From an uncultured Gammaproteobacteria bacterium (GTDB lineage: Bacteria > Patescibacteriota > Patescibacteriia > UBA1558 > 2-01-FULL-52-15), in NCBI GenBank assembly GCA_964402565.1, contig CAYOCJ010000002.1, positions 316,659 to 380,658 of the forward strand: a stretch of 64,000 nt of DNA, read 5' to 3'. Of this stretch, positions 7,150-38,092 are shown piece after piece (position 1 is the stretch's first letter; each line of letters opens with the position of its first letter). Made by a program: the position numbers and the translations under genes. Below the pieces are notes generated by a model. That model was not told the origin of the DNA. It made no database searches and saw only the letters and a list, made by a program, of their open reading frames with translations.

Positions 7150-7224
7150 CGCGGGATAGAGCAGTGGCAGCTCGCCAGGCCCATAACCTGGAGGTCGGGG
7201 GTTCGAATCCCCCTCCCGCTACCA
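7150..7224 (+). tRNA. tRNA-Met (CAT); C1 is unpaired with position 72, so an initiator or Ile2 (lysidine) identity is not excluded
   Basis: CGCGGGA-TA-GAGC-AGTGGCA-GCTC-G-CCAGG-CCCATAA-CCTGG-AGGTC-GGGGG-TTCGAAT-CCCCC-TCCCGCT-A-CCA. Confidence 0.8.
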
Positions 7225-7268: not shown

Positions 7269-7345
7269 GGCGGGGTAGCTCAGTCGGTTAGAGCGTGGGA
7301 CTCATAAGCCCGAGGTCGGCGGTTCGATTCCGCCCCCCGCTACCA
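7269..7345 (+). tRNA. tRNA-Met (CAT), second copy (elongator/initiator/Ile2 not resolved)
   Basis: GGCGGGG-TA-GCTC-AGTCGGTTA-GAGC...CTCATAA loop...GGCGG-TTCGATT-CCGCC-CCCCGCT-A-CCA, with a G1-U72 wobble. Confidence 0.8.
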
Positions 7346-7468
7346 AATCAGCCCTTAGGGTTGTTTTTTGTTAATATTGACAAAAACATAAAAAAGTGTT
7401 ACTATTGAATGTTCAAAACTTGAACCTGTTATTTCACAAAACGCATCATAGTGCGTGGGGGGTATATC

Positions 7469-8347
7469 ATGCGAGACGACGGAAAGATCTTTCGCCAGGA
7501 TGGAAAGACGATCGTCCAGATCCAGGGGCATAGCAGCCTCGGTTCGCTGCCGGGCGTTCGCTGTCTGGATCCGGAGGCCGAGGAAGAAAAGCGCATCTAC
7601 GAGAAGGTCTTCATCAAGAAGAAGGTCTACCTTCCCGGCGAGTATGACCAAGCAGTCAGCGAACAGCTGAAAGGCAAGGACATCGTCGTCCTGGGCATGA
7701 ACGGCTACAGCGGCTTGTCCGACGAGCTGTGCGCGGCCTGGGGCGTCAAGCCCGGAGGATATGAGGCTGCGTGTGCGGCCATCCTTCGGTCAACGACCAA
7801 GCTGCTTCAGGCGAAGTTCCCGGGTGTCGACATTCGCTTCGCACACGGCGCCTCGGACTTGGGAGTCGATCGGGCGATCATCGAGGTTGCCAACGGTTTG
7901 AATCGACCTCAGCTCGGGCACAGTTGTCCGCACTTCATGTTCTACGTCGAAGACGATGACATCCCGGTCTACGTCGCCAAGGACCAGGCTGCGTATTCGC
8001 TCGCGTTCATTTCGTCGCTCGACATCCTGATCGCTGCCAACGGCAGGATCCAGTCGTTCGAGCACGATATCGACGCAGCCTTCAAGAAGTTGAAGCATGT
8101 CATTCCGGTGAATGTGCTGCGCAGCATCTCGACCAACGGTGGTCCGCCGGCAGTCGGTCCTGACGGCAAGATCAACGATGCGGTCGCCGCCTTCGAGCAG
8201 CACGTGCATCTTGTGTCCCAGCACTTCGGTTCGTTGAATTACAATTCGGCGAACATGTTCCCGAGCCTCGTCGAACACGTCAACGTGGTCGTCGAGCACA
8301 TCGGGCGGCAAATCCTGTCGCCTGATCGTGCGTTCGCAGCATTCTGA
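7469..8347 (+). CDS. SLOG / DprA-like Rossmann-fold protein (hypothetical), GC-rich islet gene 1
   Basis: RBS gggggtatatc-ATG. The motifs HGASDLGVDRAIIEVANG and FISSLDILIAANGRIQS resemble the DprA/SLOG GxxxGxD...A and SxL...A...S signatures. No DprA C-terminal winged helix is seen. Confidence 0.45.
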   Translation: MRDDGKIFRQDGKTIVQIQGHSSLGSLPGVRCLDPEAEEEKRIYEKVFIKKKVYLPGEYDQAVSEQLKGKDIVVLGMNGYSGLSDELCAAWGVKPGGYEAACAAILRSTTKLLQAKFPGVDIRFAHGASDLGVDRAIIEVANGLNRPQLGHSCPHFMFYVEDDDIPVYVAKDQAAYSLAFISSLDILIAANGRIQSFEHDIDAAFKKLKHVIPVNVLRSISTNGGPPAVGPDGKINDAVAAFEQHVHLVSQHFGSLNYNSANMFPSLVEHVNVVVEHIGRQILSPDRAFAAF

Positions 8348-8411
8348 CCCTCTACGAATTCCTCGAACGGGATCGACGGTCATACCACAACCAAGGATAA
8401 AGGAGAAGTGC

Positions 8412-8873
8412 ATGAGAATCGCGATGATCTCGTACAACATGTTCGTGATCCGCGAGGCGAACGGCTGGAAAACCAACGGCGACAATGCCGTTCTGCTGCT
8501 GCAGAACACGTCGGGCAAGACGTGGGGCCTGACTCAGTTCGGCCTCACGCCCCGCGAATGGTCGAATGAGGCCGGCGCCATCGTTGACCCGCTGTGGAAG
8601 CAGCTCGAAAGCGAGCTGCCGACGATCGAGAAGGTCGTCTTCTACGTCGGGAGCGACGGAGCAGAGCGGGTCATCGAGCTCGCCGCGGATCATGGCCTCA
8701 CGCCTGACCGTGCCGTCTTCGTCTGCTGCAGCTGCAATGCTCGCACCAAGAGGGAGGTGATCAGTTCCCGCGGATTTTCCGGGTCGCCGATCCTCCACGC
8801 GGTCTGCGGCGGACACGACGAGATGCGTAACATCTACAACAACGTTCTCAACCACGGTAACCTCTCGAGCTGA
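8412..8873 (+). CDS. hypothetical protein, GC-rich islet gene 2
   Basis: RBS aaggagaagtgc-ATG. 154 aa. Co-directional, 64 nt after the SLOG-like gene. Confidence 0.5.
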   Translation: MRIAMISYNMFVIREANGWKTNGDNAVLLLQNTSGKTWGLTQFGLTPREWSNEAGAIVDPLWKQLESELPTIEKVVFYVGSDGAERVIELAADHGLTPDRAVFVCCSCNARTKREVISSRGFSGSPILHAVCGGHDEMRNIYNNVLNHGNLSS

Positions 8874-8929
8874 TCGAGGGGACGCCAACACGAGGAGCCC
8901 CGTGCCAGACTAATAATCTGCGCGGGGCT

Positions 8930-9277
8930 CTAAACATTTTTTTCAAGAAATTCTTTGAGCAGCTTTCGATGGCAATAGCCATCTTTTTTGCAATGGCAGA
9001 GTAAGGTCAGGGTATTGTAGCAACTTTCCTCATAGAGACTTTCGAGCAACGGTTGCAGTTTCTTGTTCTCTAATTGCTTTAGATATTCTTCTTTGAACAA
9101 TTCCCAGCTGTATTTGGTTCCTTTCCAATTCGCCATGAGTTCAAGCGGGCTTCCGAGCTCGCGAAACCATGCATCCACCTTTGCTTCGCGGGAGGCATCC
9201 GGCCAATAGTAACTTACCAGGATGCGCTTGCCATCGCGCTCGTTGATCGCCTCAGATAACGATTTTATTTGCAGCAT
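8930..9277 (-). CDS. DUF488-family protein
   Basis: The W..GKISWEEF...PVTLLCxCK...HCHR-like pattern (WKGTKYSWELF...LTLLCHCKKDGYCHRKLL). An internal Met start avoids overlap with the divergent gene. Confidence 0.6.
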   Translation of the reverse strand: MLQIKSLSEAINERDGKRILVSYYWPDASREAKVDAWFRELGSPLELMANWKGTKYSWELFKEEYLKQLENKKLQPLLESLYEESCYNTLTLLCHCKKDGYCHRKLLKEFLEKNV

Positions 9278-9340
9278 GCCCAGAGTGTAGCATGGAGATA
9301 CTGTTGGTACAACATTTCGACTTGTGATAGTATAATCGTT

Positions 9341-10234
9341 ATGAAAAAGTATTTGCGATCTCGGAACGTCTGGCTGCAGGTAAGCTTGGTCGCTCTTGCA
9401 TTGGTTATCGTCTACAGCATCATCGGCCTCTACGGCGCACAACCGAAAACAAAAACGCCTGCCGGCATGCCGGTTTCAGCGACGATTTATCCGGTCTATG
9501 ATCTGGTCCGCCGTGTCGGCGGCGAAAAAGTGAATGTGCAATTACTGCTGCCTGAGGGCGATGGCCCGGATGTCTTGACGAGTCTGTATAATGGCGTTGA
9601 CCTGAGCAAGAGCCGTGCACTTTTCGCCGTTGGTTTGAATTATGATACCGCAGGTCTTCCGCCAGACCAGACGTCAAAGCTCACGACCTTGGATAAGGAT
9701 ATCAACGTATTACTGGAACAAGGCTCGGTAGGCAGTCCGTATTACTGGTTATCAGTCCGTAACGCTGAACAGATGACAAAGACCATTGCAGACAAGCTCG
9801 CTGAACTTGATCCTGGCTCGAAGGACTATTACATGAAACAGCGCGATATTGTTATTGAACAGCTCTCCGCGATCGATACAGAAATAGCATCCCTGCTCGC
9901 CAAAGTTCCAAGAAAGTCTCTGGTTATCTATGGCTATGATTGGGGCTACTTCGCGCAGGATTATGGTTTAGATATTGCAGCCTATGAACCCGCAGGCGAT
10001 ATCAGCGAAGCGCGGGTCGAGGAATTGAGAAAGACAATGAGCGATAATGGCTTGATCGCTATTTTCTCTGACATCAGATTATCGCCGACTGCGTTCTTGC
10101 CGGCAATGAGCAAGAAGTATTTTTCAGTGTATAACCTCGATGTGTACGGCGGGGTTGAGGATAGGAAAAGCTATGACCTTACCATGGCGTATAATGCGAA
10201 AACCATATACCAGGGCCTGACCGGCGCACCCTAG
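9341..10234 (+). CDS. metal ABC-transporter substrate-binding protein-like (TroA/ZnuA fold), N-terminal membrane anchor
   Basis: N-terminal TM/signal segment. PVYDLVRRVGGEKVNVQLLLPEG... resembles ZnuA/TroA cluster-9 substrate-binding proteins. No cognate permease or ATPase is adjacent. Confidence 0.45.
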   Translation: MKKYLRSRNVWLQVSLVALALVIVYSIIGLYGAQPKTKTPAGMPVSATIYPVYDLVRRVGGEKVNVQLLLPEGDGPDVLTSLYNGVDLSKSRALFAVGLNYDTAGLPPDQTSKLTTLDKDINVLLEQGSVGSPYYWLSVRNAEQMTKTIADKLAELDPGSKDYYMKQRDIVIEQLSAIDTEIASLLAKVPRKSLVIYGYDWGYFAQDYGLDIAAYEPAGDISEARVEELRKTMSDNGLIAIFSDIRLSPTAFLPAMSKKYFSVYNLDVYGGVEDRKSYDLTMAYNAKTIYQGLTGAP

Positions 10235-10815
10235 GAGTTTTTTGAAATGCTGAGGTTGTAAGCGACGATGCTCAAGACCGCACAAAGCAACCCGCAGTAG
10301 TATATGAAAATAGAAGCGACGAGTATCGATAGCGAATGGGCTGACATGAAGAGCAATAGCGTAGCGATGAAGTAGAACGCTGTTTTTGTTTTGCCGAACA
10401 TGTTCGCGTCGATGCGCGGCTCCTTGCCGTATCTGAATACCCAGACTGCAGACGTTGATGCAGCGCCGAGCACCGTCACGATCTCGACAATAATGATGGC
10501 AATAAATAAATTTGCCGGCAGCATACTGAATCCGAGGAGAATAAACGTTGTGATGAAAAAAAGTTTGTCGGCGATGGGATCAAGGGCAGCGCCTAAGGCC
10601 GTTTGTTGGTTTCTCAGTCTTGCCATTGACCCGTCGAGCACATCGAGGGCTGAAGCAAGTATGAAAAGCAAGACTGCCAAAATCCACATTGCATAAATAA
10701 TTGCCAATGCGATCGGAAAGAGCAGCAGGATGCGAATGAGCGCGAGATGATTTGGACGCAATGCCATGGGCATCATGTCGACGATCGGTTTTAATGAAGA
10801 ATCAAGATTGCGCAT
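10231..10815 (-). CDS. pgsA: CDP-alcohol phosphatidyltransferase (PgsA-like)
   Basis: D-x2-DG-x2-AR-x8-G-x3-D-x3-D motif (DVLDGSMARL...GAALDPIADK). Multi-TM protein. Confidence 0.85.
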   Translation of the reverse strand: MRNLDSSLKPIVDMMPMALRPNHLALIRILLLFPIALAIIYAMWILAVLLFILASALDVLDGSMARLRNQQTALGAALDPIADKLFFITTFILLGFSMLPANLFIAIIIVEIVTVLGAASTSAVWVFRYGKEPRIDANMFGKTKTAFYFIATLLLFMSAHSLSILVASIFIYYCGLLCAVLSIVAYNLSISKNS

Positions 10816-25991: not shown

Positions 25992-26128
25992 ATATAGTTT
26001 GCAGAGTGTGCCATATCGGTACATTTGCGCAAGCACTTTGACAATTCGATAAGGAGAAATAACAGAAAAAACAAAAAAATCTGAAGTTTGAACGAAACTG
26101 TTTTCCTACATCGGAAGGAGATACTGAT

Positions 26129-26446
26129 GTGTCAAACGTAGAGAGTGTTTTCGATCTCGTAGTAGCGCTTGTCATAGACTTCGACGTCGGCCATAATGGG
26201 CCGTTCGCGATCTGCCGAGTAGTCAACATCGAAGATTTTCCCAATGCACTACCGGTCGATACTTCGGTCACGTTTCATCTTCGCTATTGGAAGAATGATG
26301 CGCCATTGACTGGAGGATCGCACGTTTTGCTGGGCAACTTGTCCAGCAAGCGTAAGGGATGGCGAGCTTTCGATGCTCGCATGTTCCGGCCTTCGAGTCC
26401 TCAACAAGCAACCAGCAACGAGCAGCAAATCAAAAGGGAGAACTGA
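26129..26446 (+). CDS. hypothetical protein (island gene A)
   Basis: RBS ggaaggagatactg-ATG. The stop overlaps the next start in TGAcATG. Confidence 0.55.
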   Translation: MSNVESVFDLVVALVIDFDVGHNGPFAICRVVNIEDFPNALPVDTSVTFHLRYWKNDAPLTGGSHVLLGNLSSKRKGWRAFDARMFRPSSPQQATSNEQQIKREN

Positions 26447-26447
26447 C

Positions 26448-27872
26448 ATGCCGACCAGTCAGCCGCAAGGCGGTAGCACGATCGACATCCTCGACCAGTT
26501 GGAGCGCGACACCAGTTCCTCGCTCTCGAAGATCCAGCAGCGCACCGAAGGACCGACCATGGACCAGAAGCTCGAAGAGCTCCAGGCCGAGATGGATCGG
26601 GCTGTTCAGATCAAGGACGACAAGGAGCGCGACATCCGGGTGCGCGTGTTGACCACGACGCTCGAGAAGTTGCGTGAAGACGCGGCGCAGGAGGAGCAGG
26701 ATCTGGCCCAGGCCGTTCTCGGCCTGAATGCCAAGATCGAATCCCTCGGCGACGAGTACAAGGTGCTGAACGTTCAGGCTCCGGAAGAGCTGGCTGTCAT
26801 CACCCGCGCGCAGGCTCGGCTCACCGAAGCGAAGAATGCCGTTCCGAATCGCGAGATCGAACTGGCGAATATCGCCGAGATGTGGTTCGAGTTCCGGCGC
26901 CGCAAGGCCCGGGCCAAGCTCGAGGAGCAGATCAAGCTGGCGGAGGCGCAAGTCCAGAACGCGGAGCAGGGCTTGGTGGAGGCTCAGGCCGAATCCAAGC
27001 GTATGCAGCGTCAGCGCCTGATGAAGGCGAAGATGGATGCGTCCATCCAGGAGTTCACGGTCCGCGTCGCGAAGACCATCGAGATCATGCAGCGGCGCGT
27101 GGAAGTCGTGAAGGGCGAGATCGCCTCGGTGAAGGCGCGGAAGGCTCAGAGCTTCGACATCAAGGAGCGGGCCGCCAAAGCCGTCGAGGACCTCGACGCG
27201 AAGCTGAACCAGGCGGAAGCCCAGCTGAAGGACGAGGAAGAAAAACTCACGAGTCTCGCCAACGGGACCGAAGAGTACGCGAAGCAGACCGAGATCATCT
27301 CGAACAAGCGAGCCGAGGTCGAAGAGCTTCGCGGGCGGCGCAATACCGCGCACGTGCTCTTCCAGAGCAAGGAGCGGTTCGCCATCGAACTCGAGACGCA
27401 CGAGCGGACGCAGATGAAGCTCCGCGACAACCTGACCATGTGGATCACCTTGCTCCGTAGCGATACGGAAGCGCGCGTGACCACGTTCAAGTCCCGCCTC
27501 GAGGCCATGAAGGCCATGTCCGACCAGGACGTTGCCAAGGACCTCGACAAGCTGGGCGTCGCCATGGACCGGAACAACGCCGAATACATGGCTCAGGCCG
27601 GTGCCGTTTCCGATCGACTCCGTGTCGACCGGATGGAACAACATCCGCAGATCGTCAAGAAGCTCATGGAGATCGCGGCCGCCCAGGCTCAGGCGCATCA
27701 GGTCATTCGCGAGCGCGAAGCCGAAGTGCTCAGGGTTTTCCGCGAGAAGTACGGCATCGACCCGATGTCGACTTCCTTCTTCACCTACGCGCACCACAAC
27801 GACGGCGTGACGAGCGGTGCCCCTTCGGGCAGCGCCGGCGAGCCGTCCAGTGCGGACGTGCTCGGTCAGTAA
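26448..27872 (+). CDS. long coiled-coil protein, 474 aa (island gene B)
   Basis: RBS aaaagggagaactgac-ATG. Almost entirely E/K/A/Q/R helical heptads. No TM and no nucleotide-binding motif. Confidence 0.7.
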   Translation: MPTSQPQGGSTIDILDQLERDTSSSLSKIQQRTEGPTMDQKLEELQAEMDRAVQIKDDKERDIRVRVLTTTLEKLREDAAQEEQDLAQAVLGLNAKIESLGDEYKVLNVQAPEELAVITRAQARLTEAKNAVPNREIELANIAEMWFEFRRRKARAKLEEQIKLAEAQVQNAEQGLVEAQAESKRMQRQRLMKAKMDASIQEFTVRVAKTIEIMQRRVEVVKGEIASVKARKAQSFDIKERAAKAVEDLDAKLNQAEAQLKDEEEKLTSLANGTEEYAKQTEIISNKRAEVEELRGRRNTAHVLFQSKERFAIELETHERTQMKLRDNLTMWITLLRSDTEARVTTFKSRLEAMKAMSDQDVAKDLDKLGVAMDRNNAEYMAQAGAVSDRLRVDRMEQHPQIVKKLMEIAAAQAQAHQVIREREAEVLRVFREKYGIDPMSTSFFTYAHHNDGVTSGAPSGSAGEPSSADVLGQ

Positions 27873-27947
27873 GTAGTCTGACCCAATGGCGGCGACCCTG
27901 AGAGAAATCGAAGGGTCGCCGCATACGACTCTTCTAAGGAGAGATCC

Positions 27948-29087
27948 ATGCCGGAAGATCAACTGAACCCTAGCGAGCCGGATATCGTGCTGCTCGCGAG
28001 TCAGGACGAATACGCCAAGTATTACAACTTGATGACGGTCGTATTGTCCCGGCTCGTCGCGTGGCATCGAAAACTGGCGAGCCAAGGGCAATACGAGGCA
28101 GGGGTCATCGAGCAATTCGTCGAGCGTCTGCTCTACACCATCCGCGTTCTGCGGATGAAGTACACGTACAGCGTCGAGCACGGACTCAAGGTCGATCTCA
28201 CTGACTCGGGTTTTCCCGCAGCCATGGAGATCATGCACCTGGAAACCGATCTCGCGCGAAAGGAAGAGGTCCTGAGGGCCCTTCCTCCGGCGTCGTTCTT
28301 GAAACTCAGCATGTTGGATACGCTCCTCAAGGAGCGGGTCGAACCGCGCGAGCTTCTGTGGCAGATGTCTCAACGTGCCTACATGACCATGCTGGATCCG
28401 GATAAAGTGTTTCTCACGTTCAGTCCTGGCAAGCTCGAACAGCGAGGCCAGGATGTGAATGAACGGCAATATGTGTTCTCGTGGGGCTGCTACGATTTCC
28501 AGAAAAGCAGACCCTACGTGCACGTCATGACGTTCACCCAAGACCGATCGAGCGACCCGCTGCATTTGGAAGGGCCGACCTATGCCCACTTCATGCAGGT
28601 GGTCAAGCACGAGGGTTCCCGCGCACCCGACCTGGCCATCCTCGCTGCGTCTATCGACGACGCTCTCGAGGATATTCATCCGAAGGTCATCAAGCGGGTG
28701 TGTATCGGACCCATGTTCTCACGCTCAGTGGTTCACGGTTCAGAGGTTACGACCGATCCGCTCTACCGCAGTTTGGCCGAACTTCTGTACCAACAGAGCA
28801 AGGCCGACGACGAGTTCCTCCTCGCCTTCAAGGAAGAGGTAGTGTTCTCGAGAGAGCAGCAGGTTACAAAAAAGCTGTTCGCGTCGTCCCGCGTCCGGGA
28901 GATCTTCCACATTCCCGTGGATGACCCCGAGTGTTACCAGAGCCGCGCTTCGGTCGTGCATCGAAGCGTCATTCTGTCGCATGCATTGCTGCAACATATC
29001 GACGGGCTTGGCGATTCTGCCCTGCCCGGCTTCGAGAAGTTCGGCAAGATCACGTATTCGGCAGACGGAGGACTCTATGGCGTCTAG
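27948..29087 (+). CDS. hypothetical protein, 379 aa (island gene C)
   Basis: RBS aaggagagatcc-ATG. Its stop overlaps the start of the AAA ATPase gene. Confidence 0.65.
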   Translation: MPEDQLNPSEPDIVLLASQDEYAKYYNLMTVVLSRLVAWHRKLASQGQYEAGVIEQFVERLLYTIRVLRMKYTYSVEHGLKVDLTDSGFPAAMEIMHLETDLARKEEVLRALPPASFLKLSMLDTLLKERVEPRELLWQMSQRAYMTMLDPDKVFLTFSPGKLEQRGQDVNERQYVFSWGCYDFQKSRPYVHVMTFTQDRSSDPLHLEGPTYAHFMQVVKHEGSRAPDLAILAASIDDALEDIHPKVIKRVCIGPMFSRSVVHGSEVTTDPLYRSLAELLYQQSKADDEFLLAFKEEVVFSREQQVTKKLFASSRVREIFHIPVDDPECYQSRASVVHRSVILSHALLQHIDGLGDSALPGFEKFGKITYSADGGLYGV

Positions 29088-31035
29088 CCAGTCCGGTGTA
29101 ACGATCGAGGAAGCCGATGTTCGGAAATTCCTCGACCGTGCGAACCCCCTGCTTGCTGCAGCGAAATGGCAGCCAAAGCAGGATCCGTTCGCGAAAAGCA
29201 AAGAGCAAGGAGCAGGCGGGTGGCGCGACTCTACAACGTTGCCGCTCGCTGAGCAGTCGATTTCGATCGTCTCCTTCACACGGAAGCTCGCCGATGATGC
29301 GCTTCTGCTGCCCGATGGCTTCAACCACGTGTTGGGCATCGTACGCAAAGGCTTGTGTCTCGGCATGCATCTGTGCCAGCAGTACACCAGATTCTCCGGC
29401 TTGGAGGAACTGGTGCGGCTGAACCAGCGCGGCGCGCTGACAGGCGAGCAGAAAACTCGCTTCAGCGAGATGCAGGTCACGGCAGCTGCTGTCGCTGCGT
29501 TTTCCTCAGCCTACTATGTGGTCTGGAGCCTTTCAGACTACAGAACGGATGAGACTTCAGGGGTCAATATCAAGCTCGACGGTTTACCCGAGCTTGCGCT
29601 CGTGAATCCGGTTTCCGCCTTCCAGTGCATGGTGTTCTATTACGCCGCGTATCTGGAGCGGAGCGGGCAAGTTGCGAGCGAGCTGGATTTCATCGCGATG
29701 ACGAACCTGTATTTCAAGGCCGTCATTGACGAGATCCAGCGGAAAGCAGAATCGTTCAGGCAGGCGGAATCCTTCACAGGCCAGACCTATCGTTTGGCCG
29801 GCAGCGAGTTCTCGATCAACGGGTTCGCGGCCGACCTCAAGGCAGGCAATGGCAGCGTGGAGTTCAACCGCGTCGACCTCGACGACATCGTCGGCAACCA
29901 AGACGCGAAGCACAAAGCGTTGCGGCTCGCCGAACGATTGATGTGCTACGACCTGGTGGCGCAGCGGAATCCCATGAGCGAACTCGGAGGCTTGGCCTTC
30001 GTTCGCATGGGCCACGGCGTGCCGGGTACGGGCAAGACGATGCAGATCTCTGCGACCGCTACCATGTTGTACGATTGGTGTACGGCACTCGGGATACCGT
30101 TCTTCTTCAATCCGATGCCGGATAACATCGTCTCAACGTTCCAGGGCGGTTCAGCAGAACGGGCTATCGCTTGGATGAAGCCCCTCTTCGATCCGAAGCG
30201 GATCATCTATGCGCCGGCCGATGACGCAGAGAATAACTACGAGGACCGGACACGGCAGGGAGTTTCCGCCGGCGTTCGAGAGGTCATCGGAGTCTTTCTG
30301 CGCCATACCGAGGGCGCCTACGCTATCAAGCGGGGCAACTCGGTGATCGAACTCTTCACGAATATCCCGGACCAGATCGATCCGGCCGTTCTTTCACGAG
30401 TCCTTGACCGGTTCGTGATCGGCGGTGCGCTCGAGTGGTACGACTTCGTGGACCAGGACTATCTCTGGTGGCGCAAGCTCAAGGCGGTAGATCCGACGTT
30501 CATCGACATGGAGGATCCGAAAGGATTCACCTATCTCGAGAAGCAGAAGGTGGTAGCGAGCCTGGCTGACGCTTACTCGGCTCAGACCCAGGAAGTGACA
30601 CCTTCGGTGAAGGAGCTCGATCGCATCATTGCGGAAGTCGAATCACAGTATCCGCGGCACGGCCATGAATTTTATGGCCGGCTGTTCGCGGCCTTCAAGA
30701 AAGCGTTCCCGGGGTTTTCCTCGAGGGACGTTCGAAATATCCAGACCCTCATCAGCGAGCGGATCCTGGACTTCGGGTTGCCAGCCGAATGGCTCAAGGA
30801 CCCGGAGATGTTCTATCGCAAGGACTACGCCACAAAGCTCGGGATGCTGAAGGAGCTCATGCGCGAGTCCATGCGCGGCTTGCATTTCGCCGAGGTGCGT
30901 TGGCAGGAGACCTATCGCTATCTCGTCCAGTTCCTGCGAATTCAGGAAACGGGCAGCGAGCGAGAGATCAAGAGAATGGCCGAGCACATTCGGCTGCAAG
31001 CCGAAGCGACAAGGCGAGTCAGTTCGCGATCGTAA
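29077..31035 (+). CDS. classical AAA-family ATPase with about 300-aa uncharacterised N-domain (island gene D)
   Basis: RBS ggaggactct-ATG overlapping the gene C stop. DIVGNQDAK, then Walker A GVPGTGKT, and a second region of homology ELFTNIPDQIDPAVLSRVLDRF. The Walker B is atypical (IIYAPADDAE). Confidence 0.8.
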   Translation: MASSQSGVTIEEADVRKFLDRANPLLAAAKWQPKQDPFAKSKEQGAGGWRDSTTLPLAEQSISIVSFTRKLADDALLLPDGFNHVLGIVRKGLCLGMHLCQQYTRFSGLEELVRLNQRGALTGEQKTRFSEMQVTAAAVAAFSSAYYVVWSLSDYRTDETSGVNIKLDGLPELALVNPVSAFQCMVFYYAAYLERSGQVASELDFIAMTNLYFKAVIDEIQRKAESFRQAESFTGQTYRLAGSEFSINGFAADLKAGNGSVEFNRVDLDDIVGNQDAKHKALRLAERLMCYDLVAQRNPMSELGGLAFVRMGHGVPGTGKTMQISATATMLYDWCTALGIPFFFNPMPDNIVSTFQGGSAERAIAWMKPLFDPKRIIYAPADDAENNYEDRTRQGVSAGVREVIGVFLRHTEGAYAIKRGNSVIELFTNIPDQIDPAVLSRVLDRFVIGGALEWYDFVDQDYLWWRKLKAVDPTFIDMEDPKGFTYLEKQKVVASLADAYSAQTQEVTPSVKELDRIIAEVESQYPRHGHEFYGRLFAAFKKAFPGFSSRDVRNIQTLISERILDFGLPAEWLKDPEMFYRKDYATKLGMLKELMRESMRGLHFAEVRWQETYRYLVQFLRIQETGSEREIKRMAEHIRLQAEATRRVSSRS

Positions 31036-31088
31036 CCAGGTAGCCAGAGCGGGGAAACTCGCTCTGGCGCCTATCCTAAGGAGTAGGA

Positions 31089-32354
31089 ATGCAGAAGCTC
31101 ATCGAAGCCGGCCTCATCGGAGATGGCTTGGTCACGGTCGATTCGCCAGCGATGGTGGATCGATACAACCAGGCGCTCGAGGAGAGCGGCGTATCGAGGA
31201 CACAGCTCACTGCGTTCACGATCGACGGCATCGGCTGGAGTCCGGAGGTGGCGACGGAATGCAATAACCGTTTCTACCTGTCGGTCGGTCTGCCGAATCA
31301 GGTCGGCATCATCTTGTCGCCTGATCAGGAAGGGAAACCGATCTACTTCCCTTTCAGAAGCTTCGATCGAGACCTGATGAGCATCTACTTCAAGCGGTTC
31401 GCGCAGGAGATCGCTGATGTGACGAGGCGATCACCGATCGTCCTCGACATCGACCAGGGCGTGACGGATTACGAAACGCCACTGGATCTCCTCCTGACAA
31501 ATCAGTTCGTTGTGCATTCCTCAGCCGGGAAGCTGGCAGAGGAGGCGCGAGTTCAGCAGGACATCGTCGGACGCTTCATGGCGGACGACGAAACCTGGTT
31601 CGACACCGCGATCCGCCAGCAACTGATCGACAGCGGCAAACAGCATGGCGATCTACGGTACCGCAAGGTAACGATTCCAGATATGCGCTATGACGACGTG
31701 CGGGACTTTTATACCCGTGCGTTCGGCGGCGCGTACCTGTTTCGGAGCCACGGCGGCCCCGAGATCCTCGTACTGGAAGATGCGAGCCTTGTCTCACAAA
31801 CGAAGCGTCGAGGCGTTGTCGTGTACACCACGACGTCTACCAAAGCGCTCGATCAACTCCGCGACTGCGGATTGATCGACATCGACCTCGCGTGGTATCG
31901 GGATCACCCCGAGCAACTGCAACATCTGTACGACAGTTTGGTCGGCGACTTCTTGTGTCGCGAACGGCCTGAGATGGTCCTGGACGATGTGCCGGCGACG
32001 CAGCGCAAGAAATTGCTGCTGTCGCTCAAGGCATCGGCGCCACCGGCTATCTTCGACCTCGAGCGGCTCATGAAGAAGCTCAAGAGCGATTCGCAAGCGC
32101 TGCCGACGGTGCTGTCGACAGATCTCCAGCATGTGCTGATGCATCCGGCTGCTACCGTGTTGAACGGCAGCAGGCGCGTCATCTGGCAGCTGCTGGCCGG
32201 TTATCAGCCGTGGAATGTTTCACGGCAGTATTTCTACAGACGGAACGAATTCGTGGAACAGATCGCCAACTGGCCCGAGCCGATGCAAAGCTGGGCCATC
32301 GAGCTGATCCAGCGGCGGTATCGTCGCGTCATGGATCAGCAAAAGGAGCAATGA
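31089..32354 (+). CDS. hypothetical protein, 421 aa (island gene E)
   Basis: RBS ctaaggagtaggaATG. No recognised domain. Confidence 0.65.
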   Translation: MQKLIEAGLIGDGLVTVDSPAMVDRYNQALEESGVSRTQLTAFTIDGIGWSPEVATECNNRFYLSVGLPNQVGIILSPDQEGKPIYFPFRSFDRDLMSIYFKRFAQEIADVTRRSPIVLDIDQGVTDYETPLDLLLTNQFVVHSSAGKLAEEARVQQDIVGRFMADDETWFDTAIRQQLIDSGKQHGDLRYRKVTIPDMRYDDVRDFYTRAFGGAYLFRSHGGPEILVLEDASLVSQTKRRGVVVYTTTSTKALDQLRDCGLIDIDLAWYRDHPEQLQHLYDSLVGDFLCRERPEMVLDDVPATQRKKLLLSLKASAPPAIFDLERLMKKLKSDSQALPTVLSTDLQHVLMHPAATVLNGSRRVIWQLLAGYQPWNVSRQYFYRRNEFVEQIANWPEPMQSWAIELIQRRYRRVMDQQKEQ

Positions 32355-32355
32355 C

Positions 32356-33000
32356 ATGCCGGCATTTGCGAGCTATCTCCTGTCCATGGTGATTCTCTAC
32401 TTCCTTTCCGGCGCCATCCTGTACAACCTGGATATCGCTTTCGGAGTCCCCGTCGTGACGTGGTGGTATAACCTCACGCACAAGAGCCCCTTGCCTGACG
32501 GCCAGGAGAAAGGTTTCATCTTTCGCCGGCCGACCAAGGTGAAGGGAGTATGGGCGGTTCTGATCTCGTCGGCGTTCAGCATCGCGGTGATGTACTACAG
32601 CCACTCAGTCAATATCGTCGTCGAGGTCTTCGCCTGGGCAGTCCAGGTTCCGTGCATGCTTTTCGGCATGCACATCCTGGGTCGTCCATTGGGAAACCTT
32701 TGGAGCAAGCGCGAGCATGTCTATCAGAAGCTCGACGCACTCGAGTCCGGCGAGACCACACTCAGCGCGGAAGCTCGCAGGATTGCGACTACCGTCGCCG
32801 GCAGAGCACGCGGTCTGAAGGACGAGCTGGCTGCGGCACCAAAGCCTCAGCCTGTGTCCGTTGAGCCTGCTCCGGTGCCGGTGGAGTCCGCGCCCGTCGT
32901 TGTGAACGACAGCACGGCTGCTCCCGAACCCCAGCCCGAAGAAGATCCGACGGCTGGGATGAAGAAGTTCAACGACAAGTACGGCATCAAGAGTCGTTGA
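32356..33000 (+). CDS. membrane protein with Pro-rich C-terminal tail (island gene F)
   Basis: TGAcATG coupling to gene E. 3-4 TM helices. PEPQPEE / PAPVPVESAPV low-complexity tail. Confidence 0.65.
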   Translation: MPAFASYLLSMVILYFLSGAILYNLDIAFGVPVVTWWYNLTHKSPLPDGQEKGFIFRRPTKVKGVWAVLISSAFSIAVMYYSHSVNIVVEVFAWAVQVPCMLFGMHILGRPLGNLWSKREHVYQKLDALESGETTLSAEARRIATTVAGRARGLKDELAAAPKPQPVSVEPAPVPVESAPVVVNDSTAAPEPQPEEDPTAGMKKFNDKYGIKSR

Positions 33001-33001
33001 C

Positions 33002-34624
33002 ATGGGCCCTTCACTTCAAGAGAAGCCTCGAGCGATCGAGGCAGAGAAAGACAACCACGGAGCGCTCTACTGGTTCGCCAGGCGAGTGCTCGGAGGAGTT
33101 GGTCGCTTCTACGGCCGTCACTGGTTCGCAGGAACGATCTTCCTCGTACTGTTTGTCGGAATCACGTTCTGGCTGCGGCCTCTCTACCAGCCCTATGTGC
33201 TGGGGGTCCGCAAGTTCAGCTTCCTGGTTCCGCTCTTCGCGCCGATCGCCTTCTTCCTTTCATGGGCGGTCCGCAAGCGCTCACTGCACTTCAAGATCCT
33301 GATCTGGGCGGTCATCATCGCCCTGATCGGCGGTGCCTGGAAGTGGGAGTCGGGCGCCTACCACTACTGCAAGCTCTACCTCAGATATCGGGATCTCCCG
33401 AAGACAGAGCTCACGCAGTTGCCGCTTACTGATCATGAGCGGATCCAGCCACTGCACTCGGTGTATACGCAGGCGCTGGAGAACATGACGGATGTCGAAC
33501 GGCCGACACGGTTCGACTTCGTCCGGATCGGTGACGAGTATCACTTCACTGCCGCGATCGAGCCAGCAAAGTCGATCAGGCAGACTGTGGGATCGATCAC
33601 CGAACTCCTGTCAGTTCCTGGTACGGTTCCGGCGGCGAATTTCGCTCCCGAGAGTCGTATCAAAGTTCATTTCAATGAAGGCGAGACGATGTACTTGTCG
33701 CACAATATCTTCACTTCCGTGCGGCGAGCATTCAGCCCCTCGCTCTTCTGGTCCTATGAGCCATCCGATGTCTTCCGCGTCCAGAACGACAAGGGAGAAT
33801 GGGTACAAGTCGTATCGCTCATCCACTGGACCGGCATCCTGTTCCCGCGTCCGGAGTTCGGCGGAGTGTATATCGTGCCGCAAGCTGATAGCTCGCCGGC
33901 CGAAGCGCTTCGCAGGACGCTCTGGGGCAGCGGGACATGGGTTCCACCGGAACGTCTGGCTGAGCATCCGTTTCTCATCGGCCAGAACACGGTCGCGTTC
34001 GACATCAGTCGTTTCGCGGCAGAAAGCTTCCGGTTCCAATACGGCTTCTGGGCTCCTGCTCCCGGGTATCACTACAACGACATTCGCATTCCGGAGTTAC
34101 CCGGTGATCAGAACGCCATGCCGTATACCTGTTTCTTCCGTCTCAGCGAGGCGAAGGGGCAAGACAAGCTCTATCAGTACTTCGCCATGGAGCCTTACGA
34201 CGCTGACAAGCAGGGTCTGACGCTTTCGATCTTTTACCCTGCTGACGGCATCGGCTCTGTCTACTACTATCGGCACAATGAACGCGGAGGAGTCGTATCC
34301 GGCGTCTCGGCCATCGCCGCTAAGGTGATGGAATCCAAGAAGCAATACGACTGGACGCGACATCGGCCGGTGGAACACCTGCCCTACATCAAGGACATGG
34401 CTGGAGGCCGACGCTTCTTCTGGAAAACGACGGTCATCACGATGAAAGACCCGATCGTCGACGCCAAGGGGAACAAGGACTCTACCCAGTTCTACATCGC
34501 GGGCACGGTGCCGGAGATCGTCTTCACCGACACCGTCACGAAAATGCCTACTTGGGTCGACTCGCATCACCCGGAAACGTGGGCACAAGACCTCGAAACC
34601 CAGATGAAAGATATCTGGAAGTAG
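33002..34624 (+). CDS. membrane-anchored protein with large extracytoplasmic domain, 540 aa (island gene G)
   Basis: TGAcATG coupling to gene F. Three N-terminal TM segments, then about 420 aa rich in aromatic residues. Confidence 0.65.
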   Translation: MGPSLQEKPRAIEAEKDNHGALYWFARRVLGGVGRFYGRHWFAGTIFLVLFVGITFWLRPLYQPYVLGVRKFSFLVPLFAPIAFFLSWAVRKRSLHFKILIWAVIIALIGGAWKWESGAYHYCKLYLRYRDLPKTELTQLPLTDHERIQPLHSVYTQALENMTDVERPTRFDFVRIGDEYHFTAAIEPAKSIRQTVGSITELLSVPGTVPAANFAPESRIKVHFNEGETMYLSHNIFTSVRRAFSPSLFWSYEPSDVFRVQNDKGEWVQVVSLIHWTGILFPRPEFGGVYIVPQADSSPAEALRRTLWGSGTWVPPERLAEHPFLIGQNTVAFDISRFAAESFRFQYGFWAPAPGYHYNDIRIPELPGDQNAMPYTCFFRLSEAKGQDKLYQYFAMEPYDADKQGLTLSIFYPADGIGSVYYYRHNERGGVVSGVSAIAAKVMESKKQYDWTRHRPVEHLPYIKDMAGGRRFFWKTTVITMKDPIVDAKGNKDSTQFYIAGTVPEIVFTDTVTKMPTWVDSHHPETWAQDLETQMKDIWK

Positions 34625-34790
34625 AGGCACAATTCGCACCTTCAATAATAAGCGCATGAAGCGCGGCGGGATCCAAACTTGGGTCCCGCTTTTTCTTTTC
34701 CAGTACTTGACAAAATCTATAATTTACAGTACTCTATCAAGTTCACATTTAAACAGAAAATCGTCCTTTCCCAAGAAAGGGGAGTGCCAG

Positions 34791-36059
34791 ATGATCGAGT
34801 TTATCAGCAGATACGTATCGGTCCTGGGCCTCCCGCAAAGCTATGCCCAGGCGCTGACTCATGTCATCGCCGTTTTGTTCGTTGCGGCTTTGAGCTTCCT
34901 GTCCAATCTGGTCGCGAAACGGATCATCGTTCGGGTCATGAATTTCATTGTCAGCCGGACGAAGAACCAGTGGGACGACGTGCTCGCCAAGTGGAAAGTG
35001 TTCACCAGGCTCTCGCATCTCGTACCGGTTCTGGTGATCTGGTATCTCGCACCTCAGGCGATTCCGCCATCATCATTTCTCGAGTCGCTCATCGAGCGCG
35101 CTGTCGGCCTGTACGTCGTATGGGTAAGCGTTTCGATCATGTGGGCGGTTACCAATGCTGTCCGCGATGTATACGACCGCTATCCGATCTCGAAACGGAT
35201 CGGCATCACGAGCTTTATCCAGACGGCGAGGATCCTGCTGGTCATTCTGGCCAGCATCCTGTCGCTGTCGATCGCGCTCGCAAAGCCGTTCGGAGTTTTG
35301 ATCGGCGGCATCATCGCGTCCGCTGCGGTCTTCGCGCTGCTCTTGCGCGAACCGATCCAGAATTTCGGAGCCAGTCTGTGGATCGTCTCTCATCAACTCG
35401 TCCGCAAGGGCGAACGGATCGAGATCCAAAGCTGCCAGGTGGATGGCGAGGTCGTCGAGATCAGCCTTCACACCATCGTCGTTCGTCAGAATGACATGAC
35501 GCTGAAAGCGTTTCCTACCTACAAGCTCCTGAGCGAGGGCGTGAAGAACTGGCGCGGCATCACTTCAGCCGGAGGACGGCGGATCCAGCGTTCGATCTGG
35601 ATCGACATGGGAACCATCAAATTCCTCAGTGGCGACGCGCTTGTCCGCCTCGAACAGATCCCGCTCTTGAAACCGTATTTGGATACAGAGCTCGAAGCCT
35701 CGATGCACAGATCGGAGAAAGGAGTCGCGCCGGCTCAACCGTTCGTACATGGTTTTGCCCTGACGAACACGAGCCTGTTCCGTATCTACGTCGACCTGTA
35801 CCTGCGCCAACATCCCGGCATTCATCAAGTGCATACGATTCTGGTGCGCCAGCTGCAGCCGAAAGAATGCGGCTTGCCCATCGAGATCTATGCGGCCACG
35901 AATACGACCGACTGGCCGGAGCACGAGCGCATTCAGGCGGAGATCTTCGATCATCTGCTTGCGGCGCTTCCGTACTTCGAGCTCAGGGTGTACCAGGGAA
36001 TCTCGGGTGCGGATGTGGCGCGTGCCGCACTTGCTTCTGCCGAGATAGAGCGGAAATAG
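34791..36059 (+). CDS. mechanosensitive ion channel, MscS family (island gene H)
   Basis: RBS aaaggggagtgccag-ATG. MscS pore helix plus beta-domain signature (FGVLIGGIIASAAVFALLLREPIQNFGASLWIV...GERIEI...GEVVEISLHTIVVRQNDMTLKAFPTYKLLSEGVKNW). Confidence 0.85.
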   Translation: MIEFISRYVSVLGLPQSYAQALTHVIAVLFVAALSFLSNLVAKRIIVRVMNFIVSRTKNQWDDVLAKWKVFTRLSHLVPVLVIWYLAPQAIPPSSFLESLIERAVGLYVVWVSVSIMWAVTNAVRDVYDRYPISKRIGITSFIQTARILLVILASILSLSIALAKPFGVLIGGIIASAAVFALLLREPIQNFGASLWIVSHQLVRKGERIEIQSCQVDGEVVEISLHTIVVRQNDMTLKAFPTYKLLSEGVKNWRGITSAGGRRIQRSIWIDMGTIKFLSGDALVRLEQIPLLKPYLDTELEASMHRSEKGVAPAQPFVHGFALTNTSLFRIYVDLYLRQHPGIHQVHTILVRQLQPKECGLPIEIYAATNTTDWPEHERIQAEIFDHLLAALPYFELRVYQGISGADVARAALASAEIERK

Positions 36060-36068
36060 GAGACAGTC

Positions 36069-36311
36069 ATGCTCATGTTCTGCGGCATTTTCTGCTTCAG
36101 CATCGTGGTCATCGGATACTTCGCGTGGCGCTGGAAAGAGCCCGCATGGAATATCCCGGTAGCAGCGCTGCTCGTTGCACTCGGCGTTGAGTTCGGGATC
36201 TGGCTCGATAGCAAGAGCTCGATCCTGTTCTTGGTCTTCGCTGCACTCTGCATCGCTGGCGGCTTCTGGTGCCTCAAGCCTCAAATCCGCCCGCCGACCA
36301 CCCCGCGTTAA
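36069..36311 (+). CDS. small 2-TM membrane protein (island gene I)
   Basis: RBS ggagacagtc-ATG. 80 aa. Confidence 0.5.
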   Translation: MLMFCGIFCFSIVVIGYFAWRWKEPAWNIPVAALLVALGVEFGIWLDSKSSILFLVFAALCIAGGFWCLKPQIRPPTTPR

Positions 36312-36366
36312 CGATCAAAGCCGCCTGGGAGTACAGAAACCTTTCACCTGCCTCAAGGAGGGCACA

Positions 36367-36726: not shown

Positions 36727-36976
36727 ACTCATCGTTCATTGCATCAATCGATCCGCGAGGATCGCGTCATCCTGAAATGGATGGGAACCCGCTGGTACGC
36801 CAGTCGATAAGGGTTCCTTTTTATTTTTAATACCATTGACTTTTTTAACTCTTTTTGGTACTTTTCGCTGTCTTCTTTTGTCCATTAACATCGTGTTTTG
36901 AGAAACAACTGAAAGGGGGTGTTACAGTTAATTTCGGCGCCGGTATGGTAGTTTTTCCACGAGCGGAGAAAAAGAT

Positions 36977-37234: not shown

Positions 37235-37298
37235 TTCCCACATGCTATTCCGGCATGTGGACAGCAACTAGCATCGAGAAAACAGAAGGAGTTGGATC

Positions 37299-38090: not shown

Positions 38091-38092
38091 AC

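What the first reader, a model, noticed from the sequence alone, without database searches (positions are those of the whole stretch)
7440..8925. GC-rich two-gene islet next to the tandem tRNA-Met genes, encoding a SLOG/DprA-like Rossmann protein
Composition jumps immediately after the second tRNA (7345) and returns at the hairpin at 8890-8930. tRNA genes are classic integration targets. Gene 1 has GASDLGVDRAIIEVANG and FISSLDILIAANGRIQS motifs resembling the SLOG (SMF/DprA-LOG) nucleotide-binding fold, which recurs in nucleotide-signalling defence systems. Gene 2 is unknown.
Basis: partly seen in the sequence, partly recalled or inferred. Interest (0 to 1): 0.55.

Follow-up and report, generated by a model that had tools for sequence, protein, structure and literature searches.

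The report
Foreign two-gene cassette with SLOG protein
A 1.45-kb GC-rich, horizontally acquired two-gene operon sits beside two tRNA-Met genes; its first gene encodes an unannotated SLOG-fold nucleotide-binding protein whose relatives lie inside NAD-recycling operons of ultra-small (CPR) bacteria, so it more likely belongs to NAD metabolism than to phage defence.

Summary
Window 7450-8890 is 59.2% GC against 48.6 +/- 1.9% for the host (z 5.7), with GC3 of 77-84% against 49-59%. It holds two co-oriented genes: g1 (7469-8347, 292 aa) and g2 (8412-8873, 153 aa). A promoter-like site precedes them and a -27 kcal/mol hairpin follows.

There is no integrase and no tRNA-derived repeat. It is a compositionally foreign cassette, not a recognisable integrative element.

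The family is rare: 140 cluster representatives among 1.84 billion proteins. It occurs in CPR bacteria, Obscuribacterales, a few predatory or gammaproteobacterial MAGs, and one 309-kb IMG/VR contig.

In seven independent lineages g1 lies next to NAD salvage genes. In CPR the usual order is PncA - g1 - NMNAT::NAD kinase - NUDIX - NAPRTase, and these genes share a covarying leader structure.

g2 is a separate small flavodoxin-like family with a Cys3His motif. It is never found next to g1 elsewhere. The defence reading is unsupported.

The parts
7150..7224 (+). tRNA-Met (CAT), first of a tandem pair. Host flank, not part of the islet.
   Evidence: ARAGORN; Rfam tRNA, 61.2 bits.
7269..7345 (+). 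tRNA-Met (CAT), second of the pair. Host flank. Its 3' half is 84% identical to that of the first tRNA.
   Evidence: repeat family D1.
7349..7363 (+). Terminator-like hairpin plus T-run that closes the tRNA transcription unit.
   Evidence: RNA fold -7.1 kcal/mol.
7377..7405 (+). Sigma-70-type promoter-like site, TTGACA-17-TACTAT with TG (10 of 12 matches), in the AT-rich spacer. Putative promoter of the g1-g2 operon. A GTTCAAAACTTGAAC palindrome follows at 7411-7425.
   Evidence: a consensus match only: 1 found against 1.1 expected; sequence.
7469..8347 (+). g1: 292-aa SLOG-fold protein. It has an N-terminal beta domain (about aa 1-55), a SLOG core (about aa 70-235) and a C-terminal helical bundle (about aa 238-288). 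Core motifs are GMNGYS, HGASxxGVD, LGHSCP, DD..PVYVA and ANGRxQ..HD. The NCBI gene call starts at GTG 7451 (298 aa).
8412..8873 (+). g2: 153-aa flavodoxin-like alpha/beta protein from a small stand-alone family. Invariant C106, C108 and C132, and near-invariant H135. AAGGAG ribosome-binding site upstream. The gap from g1 is 64 nt with no terminator.
8894..8931 (.). GC-rich hairpin (-27 kcal/mol) followed by a T-run. It is the right edge of the islet and a likely bidirectional terminator, shared with the convergent DUF488 gene.
   Evidence: (inverted repeat I19).
8930..9277 (-). DUF488-N3a gene (115 aa as called on L001). Host-like composition (GC 44.5%, GC3 0.53). Right flank, not part of the islet.

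Best explanation
The islet is a single, horizontally acquired two-gene transcription unit: promoter-like site, g1, g2, hairpin terminator. It lies in the gap between a tRNA-Met pair and a convergent host gene, and it carries no mobility genes.

g1 is a member of a rare, so far unannotated family of the SLOG superfamily. My reading is that it binds, and probably cleaves, a pyridine or ADP-ribose-type nucleotide as part of NAD recycling.

The specific step I favour is a LOG-like hydrolysis of the N-glycosidic bond of NMN (or NAD/NaMN). This would release nicotinamide (or nicotinate), which PncA, PncB, NadD and NadE rebuild into NAD.

g2 is an unrelated small Rossmann-like protein with a putative Cys3His metal or redox site. 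It happens to have been transferred with g1 and is not an obligate partner.

Status of each step:
- Shown: foreign composition; operon anatomy; SLOG fold; absence from curated families; synteny and a shared leader with NAD salvage genes in relatives.
- Inferred: that the window copy has the same role as its relatives; that the ligand is an NAD-related nucleotide.
- Speculative: the glycosidase chemistry and the exact substrate.
For: Foreign origin:
- GC is 59.2% against 48.6 +/- 1.9% (z 5.7). GC3 is 0.77 and 0.84 against 0.49-0.59 for host genes.
- Codon usage of g1 and g2 is closer to the other GC-rich island (26-39.5 kb) than to host genes.
- In most other genomes the g1 homologue's GC tracks its flanks.
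- The junctions are reproduced in an independent assembly.

Fold:
- The AF2 model has pLDDT 94.1.
- The three ligand loops are nearly invariant in 49 homologues: GMNGYS after strand 1, GASxxGVD after strand 2, and ANGR plus invariant D200 after strand 5.

NAD link:
- In Uhrbacteria (L006-9, L029) the order is NrtR - PncA - g1 - NMNAT::NAD kinase - NAPRTase - Prs - NadE.
- The same core is found in L017, L039 and L031, with a NUDIX gene at +2.
- NAPRTase also lies near g1 in L015 (with ADP-ribosylglycohydrolase and an NMNAT-like gene), in L037, and in L061. L061 carries the closest relative of the window protein (62% identity).
- That is 7 of about 35 distinct loci. The binomial probability is about 5e-6 at a 2% background.
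- g1 and the canonical NAD genes carry the same covarying leader structure in L006, L017 and L039. One further copy lies upstream of NAPRTase in L015.

Chemistry precedent (established knowledge and PMC9503650):
- LOG and PpnN-type SLOG enzymes hydrolyse N-glycosidic bonds of nucleoside 5'-monophosphates.
- ThsA and TRPM2 SLOG domains bind NAD-derived ADPR ligands.
Against: - The window copy itself has no NAD gene within 64 kb apart from a weak His-phosphatase match. The structured leader is absent from the window.
- About half of the family (Obscuribacterales) has no NAD neighbours.
- The position matching the LOG catalytic Glu (aa 198) is variable (E18/R14/Q6 of 49). Catalysis would therefore need D200, D134 or D162 instead.
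- There are no biochemical data and no sequence-level link to any characterised SLOG enzyme.
- I could not check whether the NAD-operon genomes lack other routes from NMN (PncC, NadV, NadR).
- The donor of the islet and the empty site were not found.
Confidence: 0.5

Rival explanations
1. g1 is a non-catalytic SLOG sensor or sponge. It binds an NAD-derived small molecule (ADPR, a cADPR isomer, NAADP) and buffers or reports its level. In phages and symbionts it could soak up Thoeris-type immune signals.
Against: The dense set of invariant polar residues (S129, D134, C153, D162, D200, R280, and near-invariant N78, N191, R193) looks more like an active site than a simple binding site. The fixed position between pncA and nadD::nadK fits a pathway enzyme. 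Only one viral contig was found among 2.9 million, and its phage nature was not confirmed here.
Confidence: 0.2
2. The islet is a small nucleotide-signalling anti-phage defence module, with g1 as SLOG sensor and g2 as effector, integrated at a tRNA gene.
For: SLOG domains recur in defence systems such as Thoeris ThsA and ShosA. The region has foreign composition and sits next to tRNA genes. The neighbouring DUF488 gene gives a weak match to the PADLOC candidate PDC-M45C (3.8e-7).
Confidence: 0.07
3. g1 is a cofactor-carrier or storage protein of the Moco carrier protein type. In some genomes it would work with the neighbouring radical SAM enzyme on a nucleotide-derived cofactor.
Confidence: 0.05
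4. g1 is a DprA/Smf-like protein that loads recombinase on incoming single-stranded DNA.
Against: There is no PF02481 or DprA winged-helix hit at E<=10. The profile finds no DprA in the PDB. The C-terminus is an all-helical bundle without a wing. The extra N-terminal beta domain is unlike the DprA SAM domain. There is no competence or recombination context in any locus.
Confidence: 0.02
5. The composition shift is not horizontal transfer. It is either an assembly chimera or native genes with unusual codon bias.
For: The window comes from a metagenome-assembled genome, and other GC-rich blocks exist in the same window.
Against: An independent Logan assembly is identical across both junctions. 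The boundaries coincide with regulatory signals, a promoter-like site and a terminator hairpin. GC3 of 0.77-0.84 is far outside the range of housekeeping genes, including rpoD and proS.
Confidence: 0.05

Closest known systems
LOG / PpnN (YgdH) / TM1055-type SLOG phosphoribohydrolases (Pfam Lysine_decarbox, TIGR00725/00730)
   Different: There is no sequence-level similarity (no Pfam or NCBIfam hit at E<=10). The PGGxGTxxE motif is replaced by ANGRxQxFxHD, and the Glu position is variable. g1 has an extra N-terminal beta domain and a C-terminal helical bundle. Its genomic context is NAD salvage, not cytokinin or nucleotide pool control.
ThsA SLOG domain (Thoeris) and TRPM2 MHR1/2 (LSDAT) SLOG domains
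   Different: g1 is not fused to SIR2, a channel or any other effector. No TIR partner is present. There is no PADLOC hit. The neighbours are biosynthetic rather than immune genes.
DprA/Smf
   Different: g1 has no DNA_processg_A profile match, no SAM or winged-helix domains, and no competence context.
YpsA-like stand-alone SLOG proteins of phages (Iyer et al. 2022, PMC9503650)
   Same: Both are stand-alone SLOG proteins predicted from context to act in NAD+/ADPr pathways. One g1 homologue lies on a very large putative viral contig.
tRNA-adjacent genomic islets
   Same: Foreign composition directly downstream of tRNA genes.
   Different: There is no integrase, no duplicated tRNA 3' end and no direct repeats. 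The cassette is only 1.45 kb.

Membership tests
SLOG superfamily (SMF/DprA-LOG Rossmannoid fold) | Three-layer alpha/beta sandwich with a parallel sheet, structurally matching known SLOG members better than other Rossmannoids | tested here: met
SLOG superfamily (SMF/DprA-LOG Rossmannoid fold) | Conserved small or polar ligand-binding loops after strand 1 and strand 2, and a Gly-containing loop plus an acidic residue after the later strand | tested here: met
   G79 is invariant and M77, N78, Y80 and S81 are near-invariant. G127, S129 and D134 are invariant (GASxxGVD). G192 and D200 are invariant, with N191 and R193 near-invariant. Mapping of the motifs to strands uses the DSSP assignment of the model. 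There was no residue-level superposition.
SLOG superfamily (SMF/DprA-LOG Rossmannoid fold) | Detectable sequence-profile similarity to a curated SLOG family | tested here: not met
   There is no Pfam, NCBIfam, PADLOC or PHROG hit at E<=10 and no PDB sequence hit with the family profile. Remote relatives are also unannotated, with one weak LSDAT_prok hit at 0.0016.
LOG-type phosphoribohydrolase | PGGxGTxxE motif with a conserved catalytic Glu (and GGGxxGxMG) | tested here: not met
   The equivalent stretch is ANGRxQxFxHD. The position six residues after G192 is E in 18, R in 14 and Q in 6 of 49 sequences. D200 is invariant two residues further on. The motif definition is from memory.
LOG-type phosphoribohydrolase | Hydrolysis of a nucleoside 5'-monophosphate N-glycosidic bond | not testable with these tools
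   This needs an enzyme assay.
DprA/Smf | DNA_processg_A (PF02481) domain match | tested here: not met
   No hit at E<=10.
DprA/Smf | C-terminal winged-helix and/or N-terminal SAM domain; competence-related context | tested here: not met
   The C-terminus consists of four helices with no beta wing, and the N-terminus is a beta domain. Neighbours in about 35 loci include no competence or recombination genes.
Thoeris-type or other SLOG-based defence system | SLOG sensor fused to, or paired with, an effector (SIR2, TM, nuclease), plus a signal-generating TIR partner, conserved as a unit | tested here: not met
   g1 is stand-alone. There is no PADLOC hit. g2 is not a conserved partner. No TIR or SIR2 gene was seen in any locus.
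tRNA-targeted integrative island | Integrase or recombinase gene, and a direct repeat of the tRNA 3' end at the distal border | tested here: not met
   There are only two ORFs, and neither is a recombinase. No tRNA fragment of 9 nt or more occurs in 8700-9600, and no bracketing repeat exists.
NAD salvage regulon of Patescibacteria (functional membership of the g1 family) | Conserved operon position with pncA, nadD::nadK, pncB and nadE, and shared regulatory leader | tested here: met
   Met for homologues in L006/29, L017, L031 and L039 (the core gene order PncA-like, g1, NMNAT::NADK holds in L006/29, L017 and L039; in L031 NAPRT follows g1). NAPRT is nearby in L015, L037 and L061. The leader motif lies upstream of g1 and of NAD genes.
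NAD salvage regulon of Patescibacteria (functional membership of the g1 family) | The same context or leader for the window copy itself | tested here: not met
   No NAD salvage gene lies next to the islet or elsewhere in the 64-kb window, apart from a weak His-phosphatase match. There is no R1 leader hit in the window.

The most novel reading that the evidence does not exclude
The g1 family would be a previously unrecognised SLOG-fold N-glycohydrolase for pyridine nucleotides (NMN or NAD to nicotinamide). It would supply the entry step of Preiss-Handler recycling in genome-reduced, host-dependent bacteria (CPR) and in some Melainabacteria, predatory bacteria and huge phages. In CPR it would be controlled, together with the rest of the pathway, by a new class of structured leader RNA, a candidate riboswitch. 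The window copy would be a recently transferred stand-alone version of this enzyme.
Probability: 0.25. Interest if true: 0.62.

Novelty: new variant of a known kind. Interest (0 to 1): 0.45.

Why it matters
CPR (Patescibacteria) bacteria cannot make most cofactors and live off other cells, and how they recycle NAD is poorly charted.

A conserved, unannotated SLOG protein sits between nicotinamidase and the NMNAT::NAD kinase fusion. That marks either a missing enzymatic step or a new ligand-binding regulator of that pathway. It also extends the known link between SLOG domains and NAD-derived nucleotides from immunity into core metabolism.

The family is small, well modelled (pLDDT 94) and easy to test in vitro.

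For this window in particular, the result downgrades a suspected defence islet to a two-gene horizontally acquired cassette of metabolic or accessory genes.

The covarying leader found upstream of NAD genes in related genomes may matter more than the islet itself, as a riboswitch candidate.

Tried and rejected
- Family scans. Pfam, NCBIfam, PADLOC and PHROGs on g1 and g2 at E<=10 gave nothing for either. My first four calls (6-9) failed because the frame was off by one.
- PDB sequence search with the g1 family profile gave only spurious TPR and katanin hits.
- 'g1 replaces the missing NadD'. I rejected this idea: the 465-aa neighbour is an NMNAT::NAD kinase fusion (TIGR00482 1.2e-17 plus NF003406 8e-32).
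- g1-g2 as a conserved pair. Rejected by tblastn over 17 g2 loci and about 35 g1 loci.
- att sites and tRNA fragments: none found.
- Known RNA elements. There are none in the islet or its leader. Rfam also has no match for the leader motif in the related operons.
- The afdb50 library was unavailable.
- Remote ~400-aa relatives from the exhaustive profile search have no Pfam domains either.
- PHROG scan of the putative huge-phage locus: uninformative.
- Organism names. Cluster look-up returned none for the window proteins, so the host is unidentified. A CPR affiliation is inferred only from the relatives of g2.
- Literature. Searches for a described SLOG protein in NAD salvage, for an NMN nucleosidase gene and for DUF488 function found no description of this family.
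- Origin of the window copy. The NJ tree places it with L061, Spechtbacteria and Komeilibacteria. By raw distance a 61%-GC relative (L064) that the tree places inside the Obscuribacterales clade is equally close, so the donor is unresolved.
Full report
**1. What is in the sequence**

Two tRNA-Met (CAT) genes lie at 7150-7224 and 7269-7345. A small terminator-like hairpin follows at 7349-7363. Next comes an AT-rich spacer holding the only sigma-70-like site in the region, TTGACA-17-TACTAT with an upstream TG, at 7377-7405.

From about 7450 the GC content climbs to 58-64%. It falls back to host level just after a strong hairpin at 8894-8931, which folds at -27 kcal/mol and is followed by a T-run.

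Between these signals lie two co-oriented ORFs.
- g1 runs 7469-8347 (292 aa from the ATG). The NCBI gene call uses a GTG at 7451 and gives 298 aa.
- g2 runs 8412-8873 (153 aa), with an AAGGAG ribosome-binding site.
- The 64-nt gap between them has no terminator, so the two genes look like one operon.

The downstream gene is convergent (8930-9277, DUF488-N3a) and has host composition.

**2. Is the composition shift real?**

Yes.
- The islet is 59.2% GC. The 335 host-like windows of equal size average 48.6 +/- 1.9%, with a maximum of 52.9% (z = 5.7).
- GC3 is 0.77 for g1 and 0.84 for g2, against 0.49-0.59 for eight host genes.
- In most other genomes the g1 homologue has the GC content of its flanks. 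The anomaly therefore belongs to this copy, not to the family.
- An independent Logan assembly is identical over 4.56 kb spanning both junctions.

The window holds at least one more island with the same signature: 26.0-39.5 kb, GC3 0.71-0.83 for seven of eight genes (the eighth is 0.55). Codon usage of g1 and g2 is closer to that island than to the host genes.

Recent horizontal acquisition is the simplest reading. It is not a classical tRNA-integrated element. There is no recombinase, no direct repeats, and no tRNA fragment of 9 nt or more at the far border.

**3. Gene 1**

No curated library recognises g1: Pfam, NCBIfam, PADLOC and PHROGs gave nothing at E<=10. The family profile also finds nothing in the PDB by sequence.

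Homologues:
- A word-indexed search found 111 homologues at 39-64% identity. All are called 'hypothetical' and none has a Pfam domain.
- An exhaustive profile search of 1.84 billion cluster representatives found only 140 at E<=1e-3, so the family is rare. Ten remote relatives of about 390-550 aa that I scanned are unannotated too, apart from one weak LSDAT_prok match.
- A genome scan places the family in Obscuribacterales/Melainabacteria (about 14 species) and in many CPR lineages: Uhr-, Specht-, Komeili-, Peri- and Parcubacteria and Moraniibacteriota. It is also in a few uncultured Gammaproteobacteria and Bdellovibrionales.
- One 309-kb IMG/VR contig carries it. I could not confirm the viral nature of that contig.

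Structure:
- The alignment-based AlphaFold2 model is very confident (pLDDT 94.1, pTM 0.90).
- About 150-165 of the 292 residues align in most top hits (up to about 195 for the longer chains). An N-terminal beta domain (about aa 1-55) and a C-terminal four-helix bundle (about aa 238-288) are specific to this family.

The conserved motifs sit where SLOG proteins hold their ligand: GMNGYS after strand 1, HGASxxGVD after strand 2, and ANGRxQ..HD after strand 5. There are also an invariant Cys (in LGHSCP), D162, Y176 and R280.

g1 is not DprA. It has no PF02481 match, no winged helix and no competence context. It also lacks the LOG signature: the residue at the position of the catalytic Glu in PGGxGTxxE is variable, and an invariant Asp lies two residues further on.

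**4. What the relatives' neighbourhoods say**

This was the most informative evidence.

- In Uhrbacteria GW2011_GWF2_41_16 the homologue lies in the series NrtR - isochorismatase/PncA - g1 - 465-aa protein - NAPRTase - PRPP synthetase - NAD synthetase.
- The 465-aa protein is a fusion of a nicotinate/nicotinamide-nucleotide adenylyltransferase and NAD kinase. The pathway is therefore complete without g1, and I dropped my initial idea that g1 replaces NadD.
- The core PncA-like - g1 - NMNAT::NADK - NUDIX - NAPRTase recurs in two other CPR lineages whose g1 proteins are only 40-43% identical to the Uhrbacteria one (L017, L039). A fourth lineage, L031 (49% identical), has the same genes in a slightly different order. 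NrtR, a histidine phosphatase and NadE lie nearby.
- NAPRTase also lies near g1 in L015, together with an ADP-ribosylglycohydrolase and an NMNAT-like gene; in a gammaproteobacterial MAG (L037); and in L061, the contig carrying the closest relative of the window protein (62% identity). There the order is NAPRTase - small membrane protein - g1 - radical SAM.
- That makes seven of about 35 distinct loci. If a random gene has a 2% chance of having pncB within 8 kb, the chance of seven or more is about 5e-6. The loci are not fully independent, but they fall on several branches of a rough NJ tree.
- The Obscuribacterales copies and the putative viral copy have no informative neighbours.
- An uncharacterised radical SAM gene accompanies g1 in three lineages. 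I cannot explain this.

**5. A shared leader**

While checking intergenic regions in the CPR operons, I saw that the PncA-like gene, g1, NMNAT::NADK and NUDIX are each preceded by the same element of about 80 nt. It consists of a P1 stem (AGAGx/xCTCT) enclosing a hairpin, a second hairpin, and a conserved GTTCATT box.

- On nine copies, RNAalifold predicts 22 pairs, of which 15 show compensatory changes.
- 93.9% of cells are paired, against 75.7 +/- 1.8% in shuffles (0 of 500 shuffles reach the observed value) and 34-52% when partners are slid.
- G-U pairs favour an RNA on the sense strand.
- A covariance model finds one further copy just upstream of NAPRTase in the independent lineage L015 (E 1e-4), but none in the window.
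- Rfam has no matching family.
- A different palindrome, TAGTGTA-N6-TACACTA, sits upstream of nrtR and of the operon next to it. It is the likelier NrtR box.

Two things follow. First, g1 homologues appear to be co-regulated with canonical NAD genes. Second, the leader is a candidate new cis-regulatory RNA. It lies outside the window, so I report it as a side observation.

**6. Gene 2**

g2 belongs to a tight family of about 40 stand-alone proteins of about 150 aa (38-65% identity to g2). The few with a source name are from CPR MAGs (Staskawiczbacteria, Parcubacteria). None has an annotation.

- The model is confident (pLDDT 92.1).
- Invariant residues cluster at the C-terminal ends of the strands: S7, Y8 and N9; YVGSxGAE; CxCN; and CGGH. 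They include C106, C108 and C132 (all invariant) and H135 (>=90% conserved). I read these as a possible metal or redox site. This is inference only.
- In 17 other loci g2 is never near a g1 homologue or an NAD gene. The only recurring neighbour is a TrmB-family regulator, in three loci.
- All other g2 loci but one weak partial match are 32-51% GC, whereas the window copy has GC3 of 0.84. g1 and g2 therefore probably lived together in an unsampled GC-rich donor.

**7. Mechanism**

Shown:
- A foreign two-gene operon.
- A SLOG fold with an intact, strongly conserved pocket.
- Family-level synteny and shared regulation with NAD salvage.

Inferred:
- The window protein handles an NAD-related nucleotide.

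The favoured specific step is speculative. It is a LOG-like hydrolysis of the N-glycosidic bond of NMN (or NAD/NaMN) that releases the pyridine base for PncA and PncB. Three points support it:
- the gene's fixed place directly after pncA;
- the known chemistry of LOG/PpnN-type SLOG enzymes;
- the need of scavenging bacteria that have only the Preiss-Handler route to convert imported NMN or NAD.

The main rival is a non-catalytic binder of ADPR or cADPR-type molecules, like the ThsA and TRPM2 SLOG domains.

The defence-system, DprA and cofactor-carrier readings are weak or refuted (see the rival explanations and the membership table).

**8. Novelty and verdict**

The islet is ordinary as a mobile feature: a small foreign cassette with no mobility machinery. 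g1 is a new, structurally elaborated family of a known superfamily, and its NAD-salvage context is not described in any paper my literature searches turned up. I rate this 'new variant of a known kind', with moderate interest (0.45).

The score is held down for three reasons:
- the window copy itself lacks the NAD context;
- the biochemical role is unproven;
- g2 remains functionally opaque.

Noticed in passing
L017:7869-7949, L017:8961-9043, L017:10519-10600, L017:6721-6815; L039:7861-7937, 8929-9010, 10482-10561; L006:7893-7978, 8943-9027; L015:13308-13388: A structured leader of about 80 nt lies upstream of NAD salvage genes, including g1 homologues, in CPR genomes. It has a P1 stem (AGAGx/xCTCT) around a hairpin, a second hairpin, and then a GTTCATT box. 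Of 22 predicted pairs, 15 show compensatory changes. 93.9% of cells are paired against 75.7% in shuffles (0 of 500), and G-U pairs are present. No Rfam family matches. It is a candidate new cis-regulatory RNA or riboswitch for NAD metabolism. It is absent from the window.
   Followed up: partly
window 26000-39500 (also 55000-64000): A second, much larger GC-rich island (about 58% GC; GC3 0.71-0.83 for seven of eight genes) has codon usage like the islet. It is a run of + strand genes, mostly without Pfam hits, plus an AAA ATPase (28921-31035), DUF6638 (31089-32354) and an MscS-like protein (34656-36059). It may come from the same kind of donor. Its function is unknown.
   Followed up: partly
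L037:7244-8179, L062:1163-1615, L061:2245-2406, L017:13020-13952: An uncharacterised radical SAM protein of about 310 aa lies directly downstream of g1 homologues in two lineages and four genes downstream in a third. It has a CxxxCxxC motif and only weak, generic MoaA or viperin-like similarity. In L062 the same 24-nt sequence, AAGTGATTTAAATAAGGAAAAAAT, precedes both g1 and this gene.
   Followed up: partly
L017:880-960 and 1430-1500; L039 and L031 equivalents: The palindrome TAGTGTA-N6-TACACTA lies upstream of nrtR and of the adjacent operon (PP2C, a 623-aa kinase-like protein and others) in three CPR lineages. It is probably the NrtR operator, and it is distinct from the structured leader.
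   Followed up: no
L006:9043-10440, L017:9076-10464, L039:9048-10430: A 462-465-aa fusion of NaMN/NMN adenylyltransferase (N-terminal, GxSANPPGxHH motif) with NAD kinase (C-terminal) is conserved next to g1 in CPR NAD operons.
   Followed up: yes
L013, L014, L060 (IMG/VR UViG 3300012988_000016, 309 kb; related contigs up to 476 kb): A g1 homologue (51% identity) lies on a very large contig that IMG/VR lists as viral. It sits among dozens of small unannotated ORFs, an AAA ATPase and a protein of more than 2,400 aa. A PHROG scan was uninformative, so the contig's viral status is unverified.
   Followed up: partly
L049:9735-10181 (and L048:5417-5818): A distant paralogue of g2 (29% identity) lies 3.7 kb downstream of the g2 homologue. 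Two paralogous genes of about 280 aa lie between them.
   Followed up: no
window 8930-9277 (-): The host-composition gene convergent with the islet is a DUF488-N3a protein (PF22751, 8e-22). It gives a weak match to the PADLOC candidate PDC-M45C (3.8e-7).
   Followed up: no
window 7411-7425: The perfect 6-bp inverted repeat GTTCAA-AAC-TTGAAC sits just downstream of the promoter-like -10 element, in the g1 leader. It could be an operator or a small 5'-UTR hairpin.
   Followed up: no
L015:2960-5950 and L034:10329-13310: Homologous proteins of about 990 aa lie near g1 homologues in two lineages (28% identical to each other). The L015 copy gives a faint LSDAT_prok (SLOG-in-TRPM) match; the L034 copy was linked by tblastn only and not scanned.
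   Followed up: no
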